Position numbers and translations under genes: made by a program. From assembly GCA_000503875.1 (NCBI GenBank), contig CP006913.1:180001-212000 (forward strand): a DNA stretch of 32,000 nucleotides. The letters run 5' to 3'. This DNA comes from Candidatus Saccharimonadota bacterium. Lineage in GTDB: Bacteria; Patescibacteriota; Gracilibacteria; Absconditabacterales; Absconditicoccaceae. A model generated the notes under the pieces. That model was not told the origin of the DNA and did not search any database. It was given only the letters and a program-made list of their open reading frames with translations. Shown here piece after piece: positions 1,207 to 30,768 of the stretch (within the stretch, counting starts at the first letter, position 1; each line of letters opens with the position of its first letter).

Positions 1207-1226
1207 AGTTGTGTAAACATACAATT

Positions 1227-1440
1227 AGACATGGCACCGCAAACGAAGTGCGTCCAGCTCCGCAGGATAGCTCAGTGATTAAGAGAGCATCTGTTGAGTT
1301 ACGGGAGATAAATAACCTCCCAAACTTATTATTATAGACATGGCACCGCAAACGAAGTGCGTCCAGCTCCGCAGGATAGCTCAGTGATTAAGAGAGCATC
1401 TGTTGAGTTACGGGAGATAACCTCCCAAACTTATTATTAT
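1227..1440 (+). repeat. two tandem tRNA-derived units (1227-1335, 109 nt; 1336-1440, 105 nt)
   Basis: The units are near-identical; the second lacks 4 nt (ataa) in the loop of a GGGAG..CTCCC hairpin. Each begins with agacatggcaccg, the same 13 nt that form the leader plus 5' acceptor strand of the downstream tRNA-Met. Each contains a canonical D-arm string TAGCTCAGT..GAGC but no 3' acceptor strand. Confidence 0.85.
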
Positions 1441-1446
1441 AGACAT

Positions 1447-1520
1447 GGCACCGTAGCTCAGTTGGTTAGAGCGCGCCTCTCATAAGGGCGAGGTCGGCGG
1501 TTCGAATCTGCTCGGTGCTA
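1447..1520 (+). tRNA. tRNA with CAU anticodon (elongator Met, or Ile2 if lysidine-modified)
   Basis: Cloverleaf: GGCACCG / TA / GCTC-AGTTGGTTA-GAGC / CGCCT-CTCATAA-GGGCG / AGGTC / GGCGG-TTCGAAT-CTGCT / CGGTGCT-A. CAT lies at 1481-1483. Pair 1-72 is G-U, so it is not an initiator-type tRNA. Confidence 0.85.
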
Positions 1521-9880: not shown

Positions 9881-11269
9881 TTACCAACACAAGAAACATC
9901 TTTTCTTTTTTCTCAACCACCATTTAGACTGCCTAGTTAGAAACCTTGCGTCATCCTTATTTTTTAACAATTCTTTTACTGTTTCTTCCAAGAAAATGGT
10001 ATTTTGACTTCCTTTTAAAACCAAGAGAGGAGCGTTATCTTCAAATTCTTTATTTGCAAGCATTTTTTTGAGAATAGATGAAGTCTCCAAACAGTTTGAA
10101 AATCTATACATTTTACTTGGTTCATATCATATTTTATTGAGTTCGTCAGCCATCACGGAAGTCATCTGTTCTCATATCAAGAAAATACGATCAGCGACTT
10201 GGCTAACATAAGCAGCTAATAATCTATGTTCACGTTCGGTAAAATCCCCAAGTTCTCTCATATCTCACAGTACCAACCACAATGGACGCTCTTTATAAAG
10301 CTCTTGTTTGAGTGACCACACCGTAGAAATAATACTTTTCATACTCAAAGGCGATGCATTGTAAGTCGAATCAAAAAGAATGGTGTTTTGAATTCCAGGA
10401 AACACAGAAAATCTTCCCGGCTGCAAGATATAATTTAACGAAAGATTGCTTGCGAAATCTTTTTTATGATAATTCTCCATTGATTTAAAGAATTTTTTAC
10501 TTGCTTTATATCAAACAATATCTGCAATCGCTAGCGCTACTCAAATATATCCATAATTAGATTTTCCAAAAAGATTGGTAGTTATGGTATGTTTTTTTTC
10601 TTTTATCCATAGATTAAATTCTGAATTTGGAATTTCGTTTGTTTTTTCAAAGACAATATTATCGAAATAAATATCAGATTTTGTTTTATGTCCTTCTGTT
10701 TGATAGGTAAAGGTATCGATATCAATATGTTTTGCCAATTGCATAGCATAGTTATCATTGAAATTTAAGAAAGCAATTTCTTTGGTATTTTTGATCATTT
10801 TAACTTCTTCATGAGCGATAGCTGCAGGATCTCCAAATTGCTCACTATGCACAGCATCAATAGCAGTAAAGACACCAATATCAGGTTTGGCGATACTTAC
10901 CAAAAATTCCATTTCTTTGGGACGATCGATTCCATATTCCAAGACAATAATATCATACGGCTTTTTCCCAAACAAAAGTTTCCAAGAAGTTTTAATCAAT
11001 ACCCAAAGGAAAATAATTGGGTTTGGTGACCAGGATTCAATTTCAAAAATACTGAGAGATAAGCCTAATTCTCCGTTGAAATTTTTGCTAGATGTCGAGA
11101 TTTTCAGTGTAGGAAAAAAATGCTGAAGTGTCTGAGTAATAATCATACGACATGATGTTTTACCTACACTTCAATTGATTCCTATAATATATGGATTATG
11201 CTTTTTGAGATAACGGCGAGCCAATCATCAAAGAAGTTGATAATAGAGAAAAAGGATCTTTTGTTTCAT
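9881..11269 (-). CDS. murF: UDP-N-acetylmuramoyl-tripeptide--D-alanyl-D-alanine ligase (Mur ligase family)
   Basis: ORF-track pieces 9881..10111, 10265..10480 and 10541..11146 are in one frame. N-terminal extension reaches the ATG at 11269. P-loop GINGSVGKTS; YGIDRPKEMEF; DAVHSEQFG. 462 aa. Confidence 0.85.
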
Positions 11270-21880: not shown

Positions 21881-22936
21881 ATGAGAAAAGCAAAATTAAA
21901 AAGTGTAGGAGAAATCCCAGGAAGCATCGTGTATACTTGAGATAAAATGACTGCCGAATCTATTGTGCAGATGATTGAATACAACGAAAAAGAATATACA
22001 GAAACAGCTATTTCTGATTTTCATCAATGCATCGAAAAACACAAAGGTAACGTAAAATGGATCGATTTCATCGGAGTAGATCAAACAAATGATCTTAGTG
22101 AAATAGGTGCTTTGTTTAATATCCATGCTCTGACATTGGAAGATATTGCAAATATTAAACAACGTCCAAAATATGAAGATATGGAAGACTATCTTTTTTT
22201 GACACTCAAAATGTTTTGTTATATCCATGAAGAAAAGCGTTTGAAAGAAGAACAAATAAGCTTTGTATTGGGCAAAAATTACGTGATTTCTTTTCAAGAA
22301 AATGAAGATAGCGATGATTTTGAAAATATAAAAGACCGCATCCGCAAAGGAAAAGGAAGAATTAGAAAAATGAACGCTGATTATTTGATGTATTCTATTG
22401 TGGATACTATTATTGATAATTATTTCGTTGTCTTGGAACATATCGAAGATGAGGTAGAGGAATTGCAAGATGAATTGATGAAAGATCCAAATCCCAAAAC
22501 ATTGCATAAGATCCAGAATCTAAAACAGAATCTTATTATTTTGCGTAAATCTATCTGGCCCGTAAGAGAAATTTTGGGCGCATTGGAAAGAACAGAATCT
22601 GATTTAATTGACGATAGACTTCAAGCATATCTTAGAGACGCTTACGATCATACTGTGCAAATTATCGATACCATAGAAACGTTTAGAGATATTATTGCTG
22701 GGTCACTAGATATCTATCTTTCTAGTCTTAGTAATAAGATGAATCAAGTGATGAAAGTATTGACGGTAATTAGTACGATTTTTATTCCCCTTACCTTTAT
22801 AGTAGGAGTTTATGGAATGAATTTCAAATATATGCCAGAACTTACTATGAAACGAACCTATCCAGCACTTTGGATTATTATGATAAGCATCGCTGGATGA
22901 ATGCTTCGATTCTTTAGAAAAAAGAAATGGATGTAA
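21881..22936 (+). CDS. corA: magnesium/cobalt transporter CorA
   Basis: N-terminal PGSIVYTGDK, YGMNF (GMN) motif, two C-terminal TM segments and a basic tail. Extends ORF 21947..22900 at both ends through sense TGAs. Confidence 0.9.
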
Positions 22937-23024
22937 TTTTTAAATTCTATAAAAAATAATATATCACCGTTCGCTGTTACATTTTTTTAACGGTAGAAAA
23001 CACAAACAAATTCGACTCCATGTA

Positions 23025-23053
23025 TTTTCTTACCTAAAAATGTAAACGCTCAC
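23025..23053 (+). repeat. 29-bp direct repeat, copy 1
   Basis: ttttcttacctaaaaatgtaaacgctcac, identical to 23299-23327. Confidence 0.9.
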
Positions 23054-23108
23054 TTGTGATATATTATTTTTTATCACTTATATATAGTTCTCTTGATAAA
23101 TAAACAAA

Positions 23109-23245
23109 CCTTCCGTGTTGGTTTCAGCTGGAAAGCATAACGTTGACTAAGCAATCCACGGCCAAACAAACGTGGCGGACTTGTTTGGCCTAGACCTTTT
23201 TGGATACTTTTTGGGGCAATGCTAAAAAGTATCCCCAGCGGAGCG
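23109..23245. ncRNA. candidate structured RNA of unknown class (GC-rich island)
   Basis: Clearly more GC-rich than its flanks. Hairpins CCGTG..CACGG (23113-23161), GGCCAAACAA-11 nt-TTGTTTGGCC (23160-23190) and GGATACTTTTT-11 nt-AAAAAGTATCC (23202-23234). A possible closing helix is GCTGG/CCAGC. No credible ORF. Strand undetermined. Confidence 0.4.
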
Positions 23246-23298
23246 AAAAAATAAATGATTAAAAAGAATATAGCGATCGAAATATAAACGCTCACCTT

Positions 23299-23327
23299 TT
23301 TTCTTACCTAAAAATGTAAACGCTCAC
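23299..23327 (+). repeat. 29-bp direct repeat, copy 2
   Basis: Identical to 23025-23053. In addition, the 18-mer taaacgctcacctttttt occurs at 23285 and 23317. Confidence 0.9.
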
Positions 23328-23480
23328 CTTTTTTCATCAAAACTATCTAAAATAACCCAAAAAATATCTGTTTGATAACCAACACCTATCAATCCCAAAT
23401 ATAAAATACAAAAAGTACATATACTCTGAATATGTTTCCAAGATAGCAAGATCTGATTTTAGTCAGATTTTGTTTTTTAT

Positions 23481-23507
23481 TTGAAAATTTCGATTTCGGG
23501 GTATAAT
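23481..23507 (+). promoter_or_regulatory. putative sigma70-type promoter for the 23555 gene
   Basis: TTGAAA (23481-23486), 15-nt spacer, TATAAT (23502-23507). The spacer is short. Confidence 0.3.
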
Positions 23508-23554
23508 TTAAATACACAAAGAAAACAATTTTTATTCTTCTACAAAATATTCTC

Positions 23555-23974
23555 ATGGAAAATTCTATTAATTTCTCAAGCAATGCAGTTAGATCAATTT
23601 CAAAACTTATGGACAAAGTTTGAGCTACCTGTGATCAACTTATCGGAGCATTGGAAGTTTCTAAAGATGGAGTATCTTCATACGGGGTAAGAATTACTGA
23701 TAATGCTATGAGTACAGAATTTGTAGATAGAGTAGTAGGATATCTATTATTACTCAAAAAACATATGTTTGATTTAAGAAAAAATGTTCGCACTCATATG
23801 AACTTTCAAGAACAACATCAAGTAGCTCATATTGTAGAACATCTTCTTGAAACCCAAGATAAATTAAAAGCAAAAATGATAGAAAGCAATTACTTCAATA
23901 ATACGTATGGATACTTAGTAAATGATATCTTTGAAATGATGGATGCTGTGGTAAGAAAGTTACCCGTTAAATAA
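23555..23974 (+). CDS. hypothetical protein (139 aa)
   Basis: The ATG at 23555 is in frame with ORF 23651..23974 through one sense TGA. Terminator-like hairpin downstream. Confidence 0.55.
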
Positions 23975-24048
23975 GGTCATGTGTACAAACATATAGGTGC
24001 CTCATTCCAAAAAAAATCTTCCTGTATATCTTGGAGATTTTTTTTAAC

Positions 24049-24078
24049 AAAAAAAACAGGTTGAGAAAACTCAACCTG
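24049..24078 (-). terminator. terminator for paralog A
   Basis: CAGGTTGAG-aaaa-CTCAACCTG hairpin with a T8 run on the minus strand. Confidence 0.6.
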
Positions 24079-24088
24079 CTCTAGAATT

Positions 24089-24478
24089 TCAATTTAATGA
24101 AGATCCACAGTAAAACATTTTTCCTCTTCTTAAATCTATGATTTCTCTTAGAGGCAATCTTCCTTGACGGAAAATGTAATCATATATATAAGAGAGCTTA
24201 TTGAGGAAACGTTGTCTGAAGCTTTCAGCATCTGGGCCTTTATACAAAAATACTTTCCCAGAATCTAAATTAACCAAAACAACGATTTTTTGAGTCTGCA
24301 TCAAGTCTTTTATTTTTTGTTGGACTTCTGCAGAGTTTTGACAAGGAGTTGGATTGTTTAAGATAACATGTTCTTCCTCCATAATCATTTGAGGAGACAA
24401 AAAATCTTTTTCAACCTTTAGTTTTTCGATTTGTTCCACGGAACACTCAGTTCCGCTAAATAATAAATAATTTTTCAT
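24089..24478 (-). CDS. KGPD-motif small protein, paralog A (uncharacterised family)
   Basis: ORF track 24089..24487; the ATG at 24478 gives MKNYLLFSG. Shares the core VVLVNLDSGKVFLYKGPD and a C-terminal Asn with the genes at 26018 and 27107. No TGA codon. Confidence 0.75.
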   Translation of the reverse strand: MKNYLLFSGTECSVEQIEKLKVEKDFLSPQMIMEEEHVILNNPTPCQNSAEVQQKIKDLMQTQKIVVLVNLDSGKVFLYKGPDAESFRQRFLNKLSYIYDYIFRQGRLPLREIIDLRRGKMFYCGSSLN

Positions 24479-25980: not shown

Positions 25981-26011
25981 AAAAAAGCCAGCTGGAATCA
26001 GCTGGCTTTTT
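25981..26011. terminator. bidirectional terminator
   Basis: AAGCCAGCTG-gaat-CAGCTGGCTT hairpin flanked by A and T runs, between convergent genes. Confidence 0.65.
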
Positions 26012-26017
26012 CATCAA

Positions 26018-26470
26018 TTAGTTTAAGACAGGATCAACCTCAATCTGTGGTGGACAGTCACTTATATCTTCAATACTTTCCAAACAGGGTTCACACTCAT
26101 CATATACCCAAGCATAAAGGCAAAAGAATGGAGGAAGAAGAAGTTTTTTTACAACTTCCTTATCCGGTCCCTTGTAGATAAATGCTTTGTCTTTCTCAAG
26201 GCTAACTAGAATAGCAACCGAATTTGATTTTAATTGCGAAAGAATGAATTGATTTGCATCTCGATATCCCTCAATTAAAAGCGGTATTCTGACAGTTAAT
26301 CCTAGCTCTTGAACAACAAAAAGTTGTTTCATAGAAGTGATCAATTCCTTTATTTCTTCTTTGATACAGGCATCTGTGCATTTACTGCTACAGGTATTGC
26401 ATCCTAAGATAATTTTTTCATCTAACTCTGGGCCTTTCCCGGCTAGTAGTACTAAAAATTTATCATTCAT
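26018..26470 (-). CDS. KGPD-motif small protein, paralog B (Cys-rich variant)
   Basis: MNDKFLVLLAGKGPE.., CNTCSSKCTDAC, AILVSLEKDKAFIYKGPD, and a C-terminal ..DECEPC..DC..VLN. No TGA codon. Confidence 0.75.
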   Translation of the reverse strand: MNDKFLVLLAGKGPELDEKIILGCNTCSSKCTDACIKEEIKELITSMKQLFVVQELGLTVRIPLLIEGYRDANQFILSQLKSNSVAILVSLEKDKAFIYKGPDKEVVKKLLLPPFFCLYAWVYDECEPCLESIEDISDCPPQIEVDPVLN

Positions 26471-27076: not shown

Positions 27077-27108
27077 AAAACCCGCCTACAATTAGGCGGG
27101 GCTTTTTT
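27077..27108. terminator. bidirectional terminator
   Basis: CCCGCCT-acaatt-AGGCGGG hairpin with a flanking A run and T6 run. Confidence 0.65.
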
Positions 27109-27604
27109 AATTTGCACACGTAGTAATTTTGGGAAGATTCTCCAAATCTCGTAGATCTCCCAAATGAAGAATTTCAAGAGATAACCCCGTATATCGAAAG
27201 TTATATAACACCAAGAAATTAGGTATATATAATTCTTGAATACGAGTAGGATCCGGTCCTCGGTAGAGATATCCTTTTTTGGTAACAATATTTACCAAGA
27301 TAAGTACTTTAATACTTTCATCAGGGAGAAGTTCTTGAATAAGTTCGTTTGCGTCTTCAAGACAAGCAAACAAAACAGGGAAATCAAGAGCCATTTTTTC
27401 TTGTTCGATAAACATGTATTTCCCGATAGCAAATCCCATTGAAAAGATAATATGAGGAATGCATTCTGATGGTTCTTCACAATGCTTACAATTTTCTTTA
27501 ATATATTCCTCAATATTTCCTGACTGCTTAAATACGTGTTGAATTTCGACTACTTCCTCATTGAGAGGCTGTTGTCCGACAAATACGACAAATGGAGTCT
27601 CCAT
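27107..27604 (-). CDS. KGPD-motif small protein, paralog C
   Basis: METPFVVFVGQQP.., NCKHCEEPSEC, VLILVNIVTKKGYLYRGPD, and a C-terminal ..TTCAN. No TGA codon. Confidence 0.75.
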   Translation of the reverse strand: METPFVVFVGQQPLNEEVVEIQHVFKQSGNIEEYIKENCKHCEEPSECIPHIIFSMGFAIGKYMFIEQEKMALDFPVLFACLEDANELIQELLPDESIKVLILVNIVTKKGYLYRGPDPTRIQELYIPNFLVLYNFRYTGLSLEILHLGDLRDLENLPKITTCAN

Positions 27605-29997: not shown

Positions 29998-30768
29998 ATG
30001 CGTTATCTCATTATGTTGCTTATGCTTTTTACATTTCTTTTCGGGTCAGTAAGTTTTGCTCATCCTGGTAGAACAGCGTCAGATGGATGTCATTATTGTA
30101 GAACTAATTGTGATTCTTGGTGAGTGGCTTGGAATCAAAGACATTGTCATTGAGGTTCAACAACGCCTAGCTATACACCTCCGCCTGTTTATCAACCAAC
30201 GCCAACTGAGAAATGTCAATCGTCATACTGATCAAACTCCTATTATAATTCTACTTCTAACTCTTGTGATTGTAACTATTGATATGAGCTAAACTCAGCT
30301 AAAACCTATTGTGTAATAGAAAAGACTAAAACACCAACAGAGGAATGTAAAGAAACATATTGATCAAACTCCTATTATGATACCACATCTGATGTTTGTA
30401 AGTGTGTATCTTGATATGAGCTAAACTCAACCAAAACTTCTTGTGTAATAGAAAAGGAATGTAAAGAAATATATTGATCAAACTCCTATTATGATAGTAC
30501 ATCTAATGCTTGTGAGTGTATATATAGATATGAACGAGATTCAGCTAAAAAAGATTGCATTAAATCGAAGATAATTGAAGAAAAAGCTAAGACACCTACT
30601 GAAAAGTGTCAAGATAAATATTGATTAAACTCTTATTGATTAGAGAGCACTGATTGATTAGATGATTGTTATTGTAAGAATTGATATCAATGGTCTTTAA
30701 ATAATACTAGTTGTGTTCTTAAAAAGAAGAAAACACGATGGAATTATATAAAAGATTTTTTTAATTAA
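29998..30768 (+). CDS. secreted YHYH-like N-terminal domain protein with four Cys-rich tandem repeats (256 aa)
   Basis: Signal peptide MRYLIMLLMLFTFLFGSVSFA. HPGRTASDGCHYCRTNCDSWGV..HCHGG. Four repeats of the type C.(E/Q)xYGSNSYYxxTSxxCxCxxGYELNSxKxxC. 11 sense TGAs. Confidence 0.7.

What the first reader, a model, noticed from the sequence alone, without database searches (positions are those of the whole stretch)
23025..23334. GC-rich, hairpin-dense non-coding element bracketed by perfect 29-bp direct repeats downstream of corA
Between two identical 29-mers (23025-23053 and 23299-23327) lies a ~245-bp segment. A third partial copy, taaacgctcacctttttt, occurs at 23285. The core of the segment (23109-23245) is far more GC-rich than its surroundings and forms several long helices, including two 10-11-bp stems that each have an 11-nt loop. 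No plausible ORF exists under either code; the ORF-track ORF 23074..23295 runs antisense through the stems. In AT-rich genomes such islands are usually stable RNAs. The flanking direct repeats also fit a small inserted element with a target duplication or att-like sites. I could not match it to SRP, RNase P, 6S, tmRNA or the riboswitch motifs I know.
Basis: seen in the sequence. Interest (0 to 1): 0.65.

Follow-up and report, generated by a model that had tools for sequence, protein, structure and literature searches.

The report
Mosaic of dispersed palindromic intergenic repeats
The two identical 29-base "brackets" are matching arms of two copies of a short hairpin-forming repeat scattered through Absconditabacteria genomes, so this stretch downstream of corA is a patchwork of such repeats, not one RNA gene or an insertion with target duplications.

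Summary
In detail: the perfect 29-mers, a third partial copy, a 46-48% GC core in a 31.5% GC window, and two perfect hairpins with 11-nt loops are all there. The interpretation needs changing. The 29-mer is the 3' arm ("E") of a conserved palindromic module. The left copy belongs to a complete 126-nt module (22949-23074). The right copy is a solo arm plus T-run. The module is a dispersed family: at least 9 copies lie between unrelated housekeeping genes on Absconditabacteria contigs, they are 88-99% identical, and their stems carry compensatory changes. Hairpin H2 of the GC core is the family's 5' hairpin (covariance model built without the window: E=7e-5, minus strand). The remaining 85 nt, which include H1, have no DNA homolog in anything I could search. 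One other assembly carries the same H2-H1 string, and its sequence on the right-repeat side does not translate as E. Relatives show the same pieces inverted, truncated or re-ordered, and k=31 assemblies break inside them. There is no Rfam, phage or plasmid match, and no recombinase gene nearby. Best reading: an ERIC/BOX/NIME-like intergenic repeat mosaic, probably transcribed in the corA 3' region. A multi-copy sRNA family is the main rival. Function was not tested.

The parts
22949..23074 (+). Complete 'class B' copy of the dispersed palindromic module (126 nt). It has outer 19-bp arms, a 7x7 internal loop (CGTTCGC / CGCTCAC), inner arms TGTTACATTTTT / AAAAATGTAAA, an apical stem GGTAGAAAACAC / ATGTATTTTCTTACC, and a loop.
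   Evidence: Perfect inverted repeat I4. nhmmer hit to the family HMM, E=6.7e-24. The homolog in L102/L117 is also exactly 126 nt and 82% identical, with compensatory changes in the outer stem. Stem covariation was counted.
23025..23053 (+). Left 29-mer, called E here: the 3' arm of the class B module.
   Evidence: It is 100% identical, in reverse orientation, to the module of relative L081 over 60 nt.
23085..23105 (+). Short spacer (TAGTTCTCTTGATAAATAAAC) that resembles the spacer directly after the corA stop in relative L081.
   Evidence: By-eye comparison with L081 7057-7092 (sequences printed). Weak, because the stretch is AT-rich.
23106..23190 (.). Segment G: an 85-nt stretch of about 50% GC of unknown origin. 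It ends in hairpin H1 (23160-23190: GGCCAAACAA / ACGTGGCGGAC / TTGTTTGGCC). It sits where L081/L084 carry the reverse-complemented long hairpin of a class A unit.
   Evidence: No BLAST hit in 167 kb of related DNA, phages, plasmids, E. coli (79) or viral contigs (87). The only relative is the translated ORF P0163, which covers 23140-23277. The positional replacement is seen.
23190..23202 (-). Linker. CAAAAAGGTCTAG on the minus strand corresponds to the family linker CAAAAACCCCTC.
   Evidence: Alignment with class A copies. The model R1 hit extends into it.
23202..23234 (-). Hairpin H2 (GGATACTTTTT / 11-nt loop / AAAAAGTATCC): homolog of the 5' hairpin of class A units.
   Evidence: The pattern ACTTTTT-N9-13-AAAAAGT occurs once each in the window, L084, L089 and L091. 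The stems and CAAAAA are identical to L089. A compensatory A-T/T-A change separates it from L084/L091. Model R1, built without the window: 24.7 bits, E=7e-5 on the minus strand, against 18.9 bits on the plus strand.
23234..23244 (+). CCCAGCGGAGC, a short GC-rich piece also present beside H2 in the nearest relative (L091).
   Evidence: win 23234-23244 = composite 176-186.
23280..23303 (+). Partial E copy (AAATATAAACGCTCACC) plus T-run: a solo 3'-arm fragment.
   Evidence: D1.
23299..23334 (+). Right 29-mer (E), then C and TTTTTT: a solo class-A-type 3' end. The last 15 nt plus the flank are shared with relative L091, so they predate the window/L081 split.
   Evidence: nhmmer E=3.2e-6 to model positions 106-146. 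Collinear 93% match from 23314 onward with L091. The same 3' flank type occurs in L110, L101 and L129.
23363..23392 (-). Sigma-70-like promoter match (TTGATA-18-GATATT) pointing leftwards into the mosaic. This is context only.
   Evidence: The same hexamers and spacing are present in L084 (by eye). Consensus match only.
23445..23484 (+). First canonical terminator-like hairpin plus T-run downstream of corA. It bounds the mosaic if the mosaic is read through from corA.
   Evidence: Conserved in all relatives, with one compensatory G-C/C-G pair.

Best explanation
The feature is not one element. It is a mosaic of whole, variant and broken copies of a lineage-specific, dispersed palindromic repeat family that lies between genes in Absconditabacteria.

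**The family**
- The canonical 'class A' unit is about 141 nt. It consists of a 5' hairpin H2 (10-bp stem, 11-nt loop), the linker CAAAAACCCCTC, a roughly 88-nt imperfect long hairpin with arms GTGAGCTGTTACATTTT / AAAATGTAAaCGCTCAC, and then a T-run.
- 'Class B' is the long hairpin alone, lengthened by an outer stem to 126 nt.

**The window**
- A complete class B copy sits 13 nt after the corA stop. Its 3' arm is the left 29-mer.
- A variant unit lies on the minus strand. It keeps H2 and the linker, but the long hairpin is replaced by the GC-rich segment G, which contains H1.
- One and a half solo 3' arms follow. They include the right 29-mer.
- The direct repeats are therefore homologous arms of repeat copies brought together by recombination or duplication among copies. 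They are not target-site duplications or att sites.

**Shown**
- Family membership, multi-copy dispersal, conservation of the hairpins with compensatory changes, and rearrangement between close relatives.

**Inferred**
- The mosaic is probably transcribed as the long corA 3' region, up to the conserved terminator at 23445-23484.
- Its hairpins would then act in cis on RNA 3'-end formation or stability, as reported for ERIC elements (my own knowledge).
- At the DNA level, the repeated arms act as recombination substrates that keep reshuffling this spacer.
For: 1. **The 29-mer is part of a module shared with relatives.** It is found reverse-complemented in L081 (100% over 60 nt) and L084 (87%), in the same orientation in L082, and elsewhere in the genome in L089.
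2. **The module is dispersed.** A scan of public metagenomes with TTACCTAAAA-N7-CGCTCAC gave 9 true copies on 8 AT-rich contigs. Two of them lie 6 kb apart on one contig. The flanking genes are unrelated housekeeping genes: rlmH|uvrB, radical-SAM|DJ-1, Mur ligase|rsmE, ligA|pth.
3. **Copies are highly conserved.** Class A copies are 88-99% identical over 129 nt, while CorA is only about 69% identical between the species involved.
4. **The hairpin is maintained.** Of the 27 pairs, 93% of cells are paired and 3 pairs carry double changes (TTACAT/ATGTAA, TTATAT/ATATAA, TTGAAT/ATTCAA, TTAAAT/ATTTAA). The covariation score is 0.076 against 0.029 in shuffles, reached by 0 of 500.
5. **H2 belongs to the family.** Model R1, built without the window, gives E=7e-5. 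Its stems and linker are identical to L089, and it differs from L084/L091 by a compensatory change.
6. **Logan k=31 contigs break inside these pieces.** Contigs from at least 5 samples end or start inside the module, H2 or E (L081, L082, L083, L091, L093, L139). This is expected for repeats with exact identity of 31 nt or more.
7. **The spacer is rearranged between close relatives.** The module is inverted in the 97%-CorA relative, a partial E is already present at the right-hand site there, and G replaces the long hairpin.
8. **Another copy is also flanked by arm-like repeats.** The class B copy in L102/L117 is bracketed by roughly 31-nt direct repeats that resemble its own 5' arm.
9. **The arrangement itself is genuine.** L138 and L140 are 100% identical to the window across the whole spacer.
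Against: - Segment G and H1 (85 nt, most of the GC-rich signal) are not explained by the family. They have no DNA homolog in anything searched.
- Unpaired parts of the unit (the linker, the internal loop CTTAAC, and ACAAACAAA) are as conserved as the stems across species. A passive repeat would not need that, so it points to a sequence-specific function (an RNA or a protein-binding site).
- No transposase, terminal-repeat-plus-duplication signature, or other mobilising mechanism was found for class A.
- Only one full copy lies in this 32-kb window, so copy number per genome is moderate and was not measured.
- Transcription, termination and stability effects are pure inference. H1 and H2 lack an adjacent U-tract on either strand.
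Confidence: 0.6

Rival explanations
1. The family units are genes for a multi-copy small RNA of about 140 nt: a 5' hairpin, a single-stranded C-rich linker CAAAAACCCCUC, and a long terminator hairpin with a U-run. The window's core would be a divergent paralog on the minus strand, transcribed from the promoter-like site at 23392->23363. The E fragments would be debris around it.
For: - Unpaired positions are conserved as strongly as stems across species with 69%-identical CorA.
- The T-run follows the long hairpin directly only on the unit strand.
- In 4 of 6 independent contexts the unit is antisense to both neighbouring genes. In 5 of 6 its T-run end faces the 3' end of a convergent gene.
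- Promoter-like hexamers lie upstream of the unit in the window/L084 and in L110.
- The linker CCCCUC is complementary to GAGGGG, a purine-rich ribosome-binding-site-like sequence. This is the architecture of C-rich Firmicute sRNAs (my own knowledge).
Against: - No consistent promoter lies at a fixed distance in L104 or in either L101 copy.
- Both strands fold equally well relative to shuffles (z -5.1 and -5.2).
- Wobble and mismatch states occur on both strands, so the transcribed strand cannot be decided.
- Solo arms, class B copies without H2, and insert-bearing copies (42 and 123 nt) look like repeat decay rather than gene paralogs.
- The window's variant has lost the CCCCUC linker.
- No Rfam match.
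Confidence: 0.2
2. One reading: a miniature integrated or transposed element of 245 bp, whose insertion duplicated a 29-bp target or att site at the 3' end of the conserved module.
For: - The 29-bp direct repeats are perfect.
- The repeat is the 3' end of a conserved, gene-like module, as with integrases that target tRNA or sRNA 3' ends.
- A third partial copy resembles remnants of tandem integration.
Against: - No integrase or transposase gene was recognised within the window's ORFs (read by eye).
- No empty site exists in any relative.
- The nearest relative has a partial E at the right-hand site without the insert, and H2 and CCCAGCGGAGC inside the 'insert' are shared with that relative.
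- P0163 shows the core with a right-side sequence that diverges from the window and does not translate as E.
- E occurs at many loci as part of whole modules, without adjacent insertions.
Confidence: 0.07
3. A site-specific invertible or recombining switch. E sequences would be recombinase sites. In the relative L081/L091 they form an inverted pair around the module body and H2, and the window and that relative would represent alternative states.
For: - The module is inverted between two genomes with 97%-identical CorA, and the inverted piece is 100% identical over 60 nt.
- E is an inverted pair in L081/L091.
- Assemblies break at these sites.
Against: - The sequences outside the inverted piece also differ, so the change is not a simple flip.
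- H2 keeps its orientation between the two genomes.
- No invertase or recombinase gene is nearby.
- The multi-copy nature of the module already explains the contig breaks.
Confidence: 0.05
4. A small membrane protein is encoded on the minus strand (ORF 23295->23074, 73 aa): a hydrophobic N-terminal half and a basic tail.
For: - The ORF is open in the window.
- A called ORF in another assembly (P0163) is identical but for one residue over the last 38 aa and hydrophobic upstream, with an in-frame indel.
Against: - Only one homolog exists among 1.8 billion representatives and 5.8 billion clusters.
- The equivalent frame in class A units is interrupted by a stop in insert-bearing copies and lacks a start codon in L089.
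- The hydrophobicity follows from the T-rich strand.
- The conserved part coincides with the two perfect hairpins.
Confidence: 0.03

Closest known systems
ERIC / IRU (enterobacterial repetitive intergenic consensus) elements
   Same: - Imperfect palindromes of about 126-140 nt.
- Confined to intergenic, probably transcribed DNA between ordinary genes, in either orientation.
- Nucleotide sequence highly conserved between species, while the genomic positions differ.
- Longer variants arise from internal insertions (here +42 and +123 nt).
- No encoded protein.

The properties of ERIC are from my own knowledge (Hulton 1991; Wilson & Sharp 2006; De Gregorio 2005).
   Different: - No sequence similarity, and a different phylum.
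- This family has an extra 5' hairpin and linker module (class A), and solo arms.
- RNA-level effects are untested here.
BOX elements of Streptococcus pneumoniae and NIMEs/Correia elements of Neisseria
   Same: - Modular build from short sub-elements that occur in different combinations and orders.
- Stable hairpins.
- Clusters in intergenic spacers, with short repeats flanking other blocks, as dRS3 repeats flank RS blocks in NIMEs.
- A role as recombination substrates (my own knowledge).
   Different: - No homology.
- Correia elements have terminal inverted repeats with a TA duplication, which was not seen here.
- Copy number here appears lower.
MITEs (miniature inverted-repeat transposable elements)
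   Same: - Short, non-coding and multi-copy.
- Class B ends in 19-bp inverted repeats.
- The arms of the long hairpin are formally 17-bp terminal inverted repeats.
- Solo arms resemble solo terminal repeats.
   Different: - No target-site duplication at any copy.
- The class A unit has no terminal inverted repeats.
- No parent IS or transposase was identified.
- Internal unpaired sequence is conserved across species.
REP/BIME elements mobilised by RAYT transposases
   Same: H1 and H2 are extragenic palindromes of about 31-33 nt lying side by side, as REPs do in a BIME.
   Different: - No GTAG or CGTC tag (defining feature as described in the abstract of PMC3733652).
- One copy each in 32 kb, rather than high copy number.
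- No RAYT gene was seen.
att-site duplications made by integrases that target tRNA, tmRNA or sRNA genes
   Same: A direct repeat equal to the 3' end of a conserved structured module, plus an extra partial copy.
   Different: - No integrase.
- No cargo beyond 245 bp.
- Part of the 'cargo' is ancestral to the locus.
- No empty site.

Membership tests
Any Rfam 15 RNA family (SRP, 6S, RNase P, tmRNA, riboswitches, HEARO/omega RNAs and others) | Covariance-model score at or above the family's gathering threshold | tested here: not met
   Whole window at gathering thresholds: only 2 tRNAs. E-value mode on 22850-23600, on the canonical copy L104 8540-8820 and on L089 10150-10760: only chance-level hits such as miRNA-type long hairpins.
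Dispersed intergenic palindromic repeat (ERIC/BOX-like) | Multiple copies at unrelated intergenic loci within and between genomes | tested here: met
   9 true copies on 8 metagenome contigs, 2 of them on one 10-kb contig. Copies also lie in the window, L082 and L084 (corA locus) and L089. The flanking genes are unrelated housekeeping genes.
Dispersed intergenic palindromic repeat (ERIC/BOX-like) | Imperfect palindrome whose pairing is kept by compensatory change | tested here: met
   27 pairs, 93% of cells paired, 3 pairs with double changes, covariation score above all 500 shuffles. H2 has an A-T/T-A swap. The sample is small (9 sequences).
Dispersed intergenic palindromic repeat (ERIC/BOX-like) | Co-transcription with flanking genes and an effect on mRNA fate | not testable with these tools
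   No expression data are available. The only indirect point is that the first canonical terminator after corA lies at 23445-23484.
MITE | Terminal inverted repeats | tested here: inconclusive
   Class B ends in perfect 19-bp inverted repeats. The ends of the class A unit (TTTTCTATGTTAC... / ...GCTCACCTATTTTAT) are not inverted repeats (by eye).
MITE | Target-site duplication flanking each copy | tested here: not met
   No shared flanking duplication at the window copy (AATTCT | ... | CACTTA) or at the class A copies.
MITE | A related autonomous IS with matching ends | not tested
   This needs the full genomes. No transposase was seen among the few genes beside copies that were scanned against Pfam, or among the ORFs read by eye.
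REP/BIME | 20-40-nt palindromes with a conserved GTAG or CGTC tag, in high copy number | tested here: not met
   H1 and H2 are the right size but carry no tag. H2-type hairpins occur once per locus, and H1 has no second copy.
Integrative element with att duplication | An integrase or recombinase gene in or next to the element | tested here: not met
   The 245-bp interval holds no such gene. None was recognised by eye in the window's ORF translations, which were not scanned against a profile library.
Integrative element with att duplication | An empty site with a single att copy in relatives | tested here: not met
   L084, L085-88 and L081+L091 show different arrangements. None has a single 29-mer in place of 23025-23327.
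Intrinsic (Rho-independent) terminator | A GC-containing stem followed directly by a U-tract | tested here: inconclusive
   The long hairpin of class A copies is followed directly by T-runs on the unit strand. In the window, the right E has the T-run but no nearby 5' arm. H1 and H2 have no adjacent T-run. The scanner flags only 23445-23474.
Independent sRNA gene | Own promoter at a fixed distance, and a discrete transcript | tested here: inconclusive
   Promoter-like sites lie upstream in the window/L084 and L110, but not in L104 or L101. Transcripts cannot be tested here.

The most novel reading that the evidence does not exclude
The roughly 141-nt class A unit is a new class of multi-copy structured RNA gene in Absconditabacteria, a lineage with no described sRNAs. 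It has a 5' hairpin with a variable 11-nt loop, an invariant single-stranded C-rich linker, and a long terminator hairpin. Almost every nucleotide is conserved across species whose proteins are about 69% identical. The window's H2-H1 core would be a divergent paralog. The arms would double as recombination sites that reshuffle loci.
Probability: 0.2. Interest if true: 0.6.

Novelty: new member of a known kind. Interest (0 to 1): 0.33.

Why it matters
- **For annotation.** A striking GC-rich, repeat-bracketed island in an AT-rich CPR genome can be a patchwork of dispersed repeats rather than an RNA gene or an integration scar. These repeats also fragment k=31 assemblies of this lineage at predictable places.
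- **For biology.** Absconditabacteria have genomes of about 1 Mb, recoded so that UGA reads as Gly, and are usually thought of as streamlined. Three full-text literature searches turned up no description of a conserved interspersed repeat family in them. One that keeps even its unpaired nucleotides across species suggests either an RNA or protein-binding function, or an active way of spreading or homogenising copies.
- **Practical use.** The family gives a handle for studying recombination and regulation in organisms that are hard to culture. Its consensus can be used as a marker and as a covariance model.

Tried and rejected
- **Rfam.** Searched at gathering thresholds and in permissive mode, on the window, a canonical copy and L089. 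Nothing but chance hits.
- **BLAST of the 245-bp interval or core.** Phages, plasmids and E. coli genomes gave no real match.
- **IMG/VR pattern scans.** Scans for E, H1, H2+linker and the module gave 0 hits, so there is no sign of phage origin.
- **corA-based locus search in one-genome-per-species GTDB.** The best hits were only about 50% identical and from other phyla.
- **Coding hypotheses.**
  - The 73-aa antisense ORF has a single homolog, P0163. Two 'hits' to giant repeat proteins are chance.
  - The 41-aa ORF through class A units is broken in several copies.
  - A 10-codon ORF through H2 on the opposite strand shows two synonymous-looking loop changes. However, the compensatory stem change removes its stop codon, so I judged it incidental.
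- **+ strand three-way junction for the core.** The outer helix is GGUUUCAGCUGG/CCAGCGGAGC. Its 5' partner is missing in L091, which keeps the 3' half.
- **XerCD/dif-like site.** Only ATGTAAAC resembles the XerD arm of Bacillus dif (from memory). The spacing and the other arm do not fit, and the motif is multi-copy.
- **Link between segment G and the GC-rich piece next to H2 in L089.** They share TGGATTGCTT, GTCCGCCAC and a 24/30 stretch. The local-alignment score (23) lies within the shuffle range (maximum 25), so this is unproven.
- **Literature.** Searches for repeats or ncRNAs in Absconditabacteria, Gracilibacteria and Vampirococcus found nothing relevant.
- **Retrieving the DNA of P0163.** Blocked by the look-up cap.
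Full report
**1. Context**

The window is AT-rich (31.5% GC), and every sizeable gene carries in-frame TGA codons, so it uses code 25 or 4. The closest named homologs are from Candidatus Absconditabacteria.

The finding lies in a 618-bp spacer between corA (21881-22936, +) and a lineage-specific 139-aa gene (23555-23974, +). No gene call fits the spacer under table 25. Under table 11 there is only the 73-aa antisense ORF 23074..23295.

Two public records, L138 (ENA) and L140 (GCA_003543185.1), are 100% identical to the window across the whole spacer. The arrangement is therefore not an artefact of a single assembly record.

**2.

- The 29-mer occurs exactly twice, with none expected by chance even at 3 mismatches.
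- A third partial copy at 23280-23303 forms a 32-nt tandem unit with the right copy.
- GC content is 46-48% at 23100-23250.
- H1 (23160-23190) and H2 (23202-23234) are perfect hairpins of 10 and 11 bp with 11-nt loops. Only about 10 sites in 32 kb have a perfect stem of at least 9 bp.
- Folding energies are only moderately better than shuffles on either strand.

**3. What the 29-mer is**

CorA homologs led to syntenic loci in relatives. A segment of about 90 nt that ends in the 29-mer is present in several of them:
- reverse-complemented in L081 (CorA 97%; 60 nt at 100%) and L084 (CorA 69%; 87%);
- in the same orientation in L082;
- at a different locus in L089.

This segment is an imperfect long hairpin, and the 29-mer ("E") is its 3' arm.

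A scan of public metagenome contigs with TTACCTAAAA-N7-CGCTCAC returned 44 loci. Nine matches on eight AT-rich contigs are true copies, and two of them lie 6 kb apart on one contig. The genes beside these copies are unrelated housekeeping genes: rlmH|uvrB, a radical-SAM enzyme|DJ-1, a Mur ligase|rsmE, ligA|pth. The module is therefore a dispersed repeat family.

**4. Anatomy of the family**

Class A units (about 141 nt) have four parts:
- H2: GTTACTTTTT, an 11-nt loop, then AAAAAGTAAC;
- the linker CAAAAACCCCTC;
- the long hairpin: GTGAGCTGTTACATTTTCTTAACGGTAGAAAACAC, an apical loop, then GTGTTTTCTTTACCTAAAAATGTAAaCGCTCAC;
- a T-rich tail.

Copies from different contigs are 88-99% identical over 129 nt. 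Some carry in-unit insertions of 42 nt (L101c1, L129) or 123 nt (L089).

Class B is found in the window at 22949-23074 and in L102/L117, with a class-B-type 5' end in the truncated contig L082. It lacks H2. It has CGTTCrC instead of GTGAGC in the 5' arm, which gives a 7x7 internal loop, and it is closed by an extra outer stem. The two complete class B copies are both exactly 126 nt long.

Pairing is maintained by compensatory changes. On 9 distinct copies:
- 93% of cells are paired;
- 3 of 27 pairs show double changes, one of them with four pair types;
- the covariation score exceeds all 500 shuffles.

Wobble or mismatch intermediates occur on both strands, and both strands fold equally well relative to shuffles. 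The data therefore do not say which strand matters, or whether the relevant molecule is RNA or DNA.

**5. The GC-rich core**

H2 in the window is the family's 5' hairpin.
- The motif ACTTTTT-N9-13-AAAAAGT occurs once each in the window, L084, L089 and L091.
- Its stems and the following CAAAAA are identical to L089.
- Relative to L084/L091, the second stem pair has swapped A-T for T-A.
- A covariance model of H2 plus linker, built from seven class A copies without the window, finds it at E=7e-5 on the minus strand and E=0.004 on the plus strand.

On the minus strand the window reads H2, CAAAAAGGTCTAG, H1. That is the class A layout with the long hairpin replaced. The replacing segment G (23106-23190, 85 nt, about 50% GC, ending in H1) has no DNA match anywhere I could search:
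- 167 kb of related DNA;
- phages, plasmids and E. coli;
- IMG/VR viral contigs.

An exhaustive protein-level search with the antisense ORF found one relative, P0163, a 64-aa ORF on a 6.3-kb Logan contig. Over the part that translates H2-linker-H1 it matches the window except for one residue, which lies in the H1 loop. Upstream, on the side of the right-hand E copies, it diverges and does not translate as E. So the H2-H1 core exists in a second assembly, whose called ORF shows no E sequence on the right-repeat side.

**6. Comparison with the nearest relative**

The relative is sample SRR8925820, represented by contigs L081 and L091 with a gap of about 21 nt between them.
- The right flank from 23314 onward is collinear at 93%. 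It includes a 15-nt partial E plus TTTTTTCATC, so a solo arm at the right-hand position is ancestral.
- H2's left half and the piece CCCAGCGGAGC are collinear.
- The module is present but inverted, and it is of class A type. It lies where the window has G.
- The class B copy in the window sits between the corA stop and a short spacer that resembles the one directly following corA in L081.
- L082 and L083 (CorA 81-82%) also start with class-B-like 5' arms after corA.

The spacer is thus built from the same few pieces (the 5' arm, E, H2, the linker and CCCAGCGGAGC) in different orders and orientations in each lineage.

Logan (k=31) contigs from at least five samples end or begin inside these pieces. 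This is what exact repeats of 31 nt or more produce. In L102/L117 the class B copy is itself flanked by roughly 31-nt direct repeats that resemble its own 5' arm. This shows that arm-derived direct repeats around family members recur.

**7. Interpretation**

The direct repeats are homologous arms of repeat copies, not target duplications or att sites. The "element" between them is partly ancestral family material (H2, the linker, CCCAGCGGAGC and a solo arm) and partly a private GC-rich segment (G with H1).

I commit to an intergenic repeat mosaic of the ERIC/BOX/NIME kind (confidence 0.6). Recombination among repeated arms generates the duplications and inversions seen here.

The hairpins probably act in cis on the long corA 3' transcript, because the first canonical terminator after corA is at 23445-23484. 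That last step is inference.

The main rival (0.2) is that class A units are genes for a multi-copy sRNA.
- For it: the unpaired linker and internal loops are as conserved as the stems, a T-run follows the long hairpin only on the unit strand, and units mostly lie antisense to their neighbours.
- Against it: promoters are inconsistent and the family shows typical repeat decay (solo arms, truncations, insertions).

The remaining rivals are weak, for the reasons listed with each:
- a mini integrative element (0.07);
- a site-specific inversion switch (0.05);
- a small membrane protein (0.03).

**8. Novelty and interest**

There is no Rfam family and no description in the searchable literature. 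The kind of element, an interspersed intergenic palindromic repeat, is well known. This appears to be an undescribed member from a CPR lineage with small, recoded genomes.

Interest is modest (0.33). The finding is explained in structural terms. Two questions remain open: why the unit is conserved nucleotide for nucleotide across species, and what segment G/H1 is.

Noticed in passing
window 23375-23554: A non-coding stretch of about 180 nt upstream of the 139-aa gene is 85-93% conserved in all relatives. This includes L089, where the gene lies in a different neighbourhood. It contains the palindrome TTGATAaccaacaccTATCAA, a terminator-like hairpin (23445-23474) with a T-run and one compensatory G-C/C-G pair, and then TTGAAA-17-TATAAT. 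It is a candidate conserved sRNA or leader and has no Rfam match.
   Followed up: partly
window 23555-23974: The 139-aa protein has no Pfam domain and only 34 homologs among 5.8 billion protein clusters. It is nevertheless 89% identical in a genome whose CorA is 69% identical. It is a very conserved, lineage-restricted small protein of unknown function.
   Followed up: partly
window 1226-1453: A 109-bp tandem repeat (2.1 copies, 96% identical) lies directly upstream of tRNA-Met and runs into it. Each unit begins with TAGACATGGCACCG, which ends in the first bases of the tRNA. Each unit also contains a piece resembling a tRNA 5' half (GCAGGATAGCTCAGTGATTAAGAGAGC) and the hairpin GGGAGATAACCTCCC.
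   Followed up: no
window 24044-24478, 26018-26470, 27107-27604 (all minus strand): Three paralogous small ORFs (144-165 aa) share a motif ...(F/Y)(L/I)Y(K/R)GPD.... They are interleaved with other small genes, and relatives show the same arrangement.
   Followed up: no
window 30341-30557: A 114-bp tandem repeat (1.9 copies, 81% identical) lies inside a Cys-rich repeat protein gene (29998-30768).
   Followed up: no
L102 1895-2160 (= L117, reverse strand): The class B repeat copy there is bracketed by direct repeats of about 31 nt, (G/T)ATAAATAAAA(C/G)ATCAA(C/T)GTTCGCGGTTTA. These resemble the element's own 5' arm. Similar tandem 5'-arm motifs follow corA in L082 and L083.
   Followed up: partly
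L089 9900-10750: An 850-nt stretch with almost no genes is packed with hairpins. A GC-rich piece (10313-10396) next to H2 folds into a multi-branch structure (z -3.9). It shares TGGATTGCTT, GTCCGCCAC and a 24/30 stretch with the window's segment G, but this is not significant by shuffling.
   Followed up: partly
window 24009-24045 and 25982-26011: Two classic bidirectional terminators (A-run, stem, T-run) lie between convergent genes. They show what ordinary terminators look like in this genome, and H1 and H2 do not resemble them.
   Followed up: no
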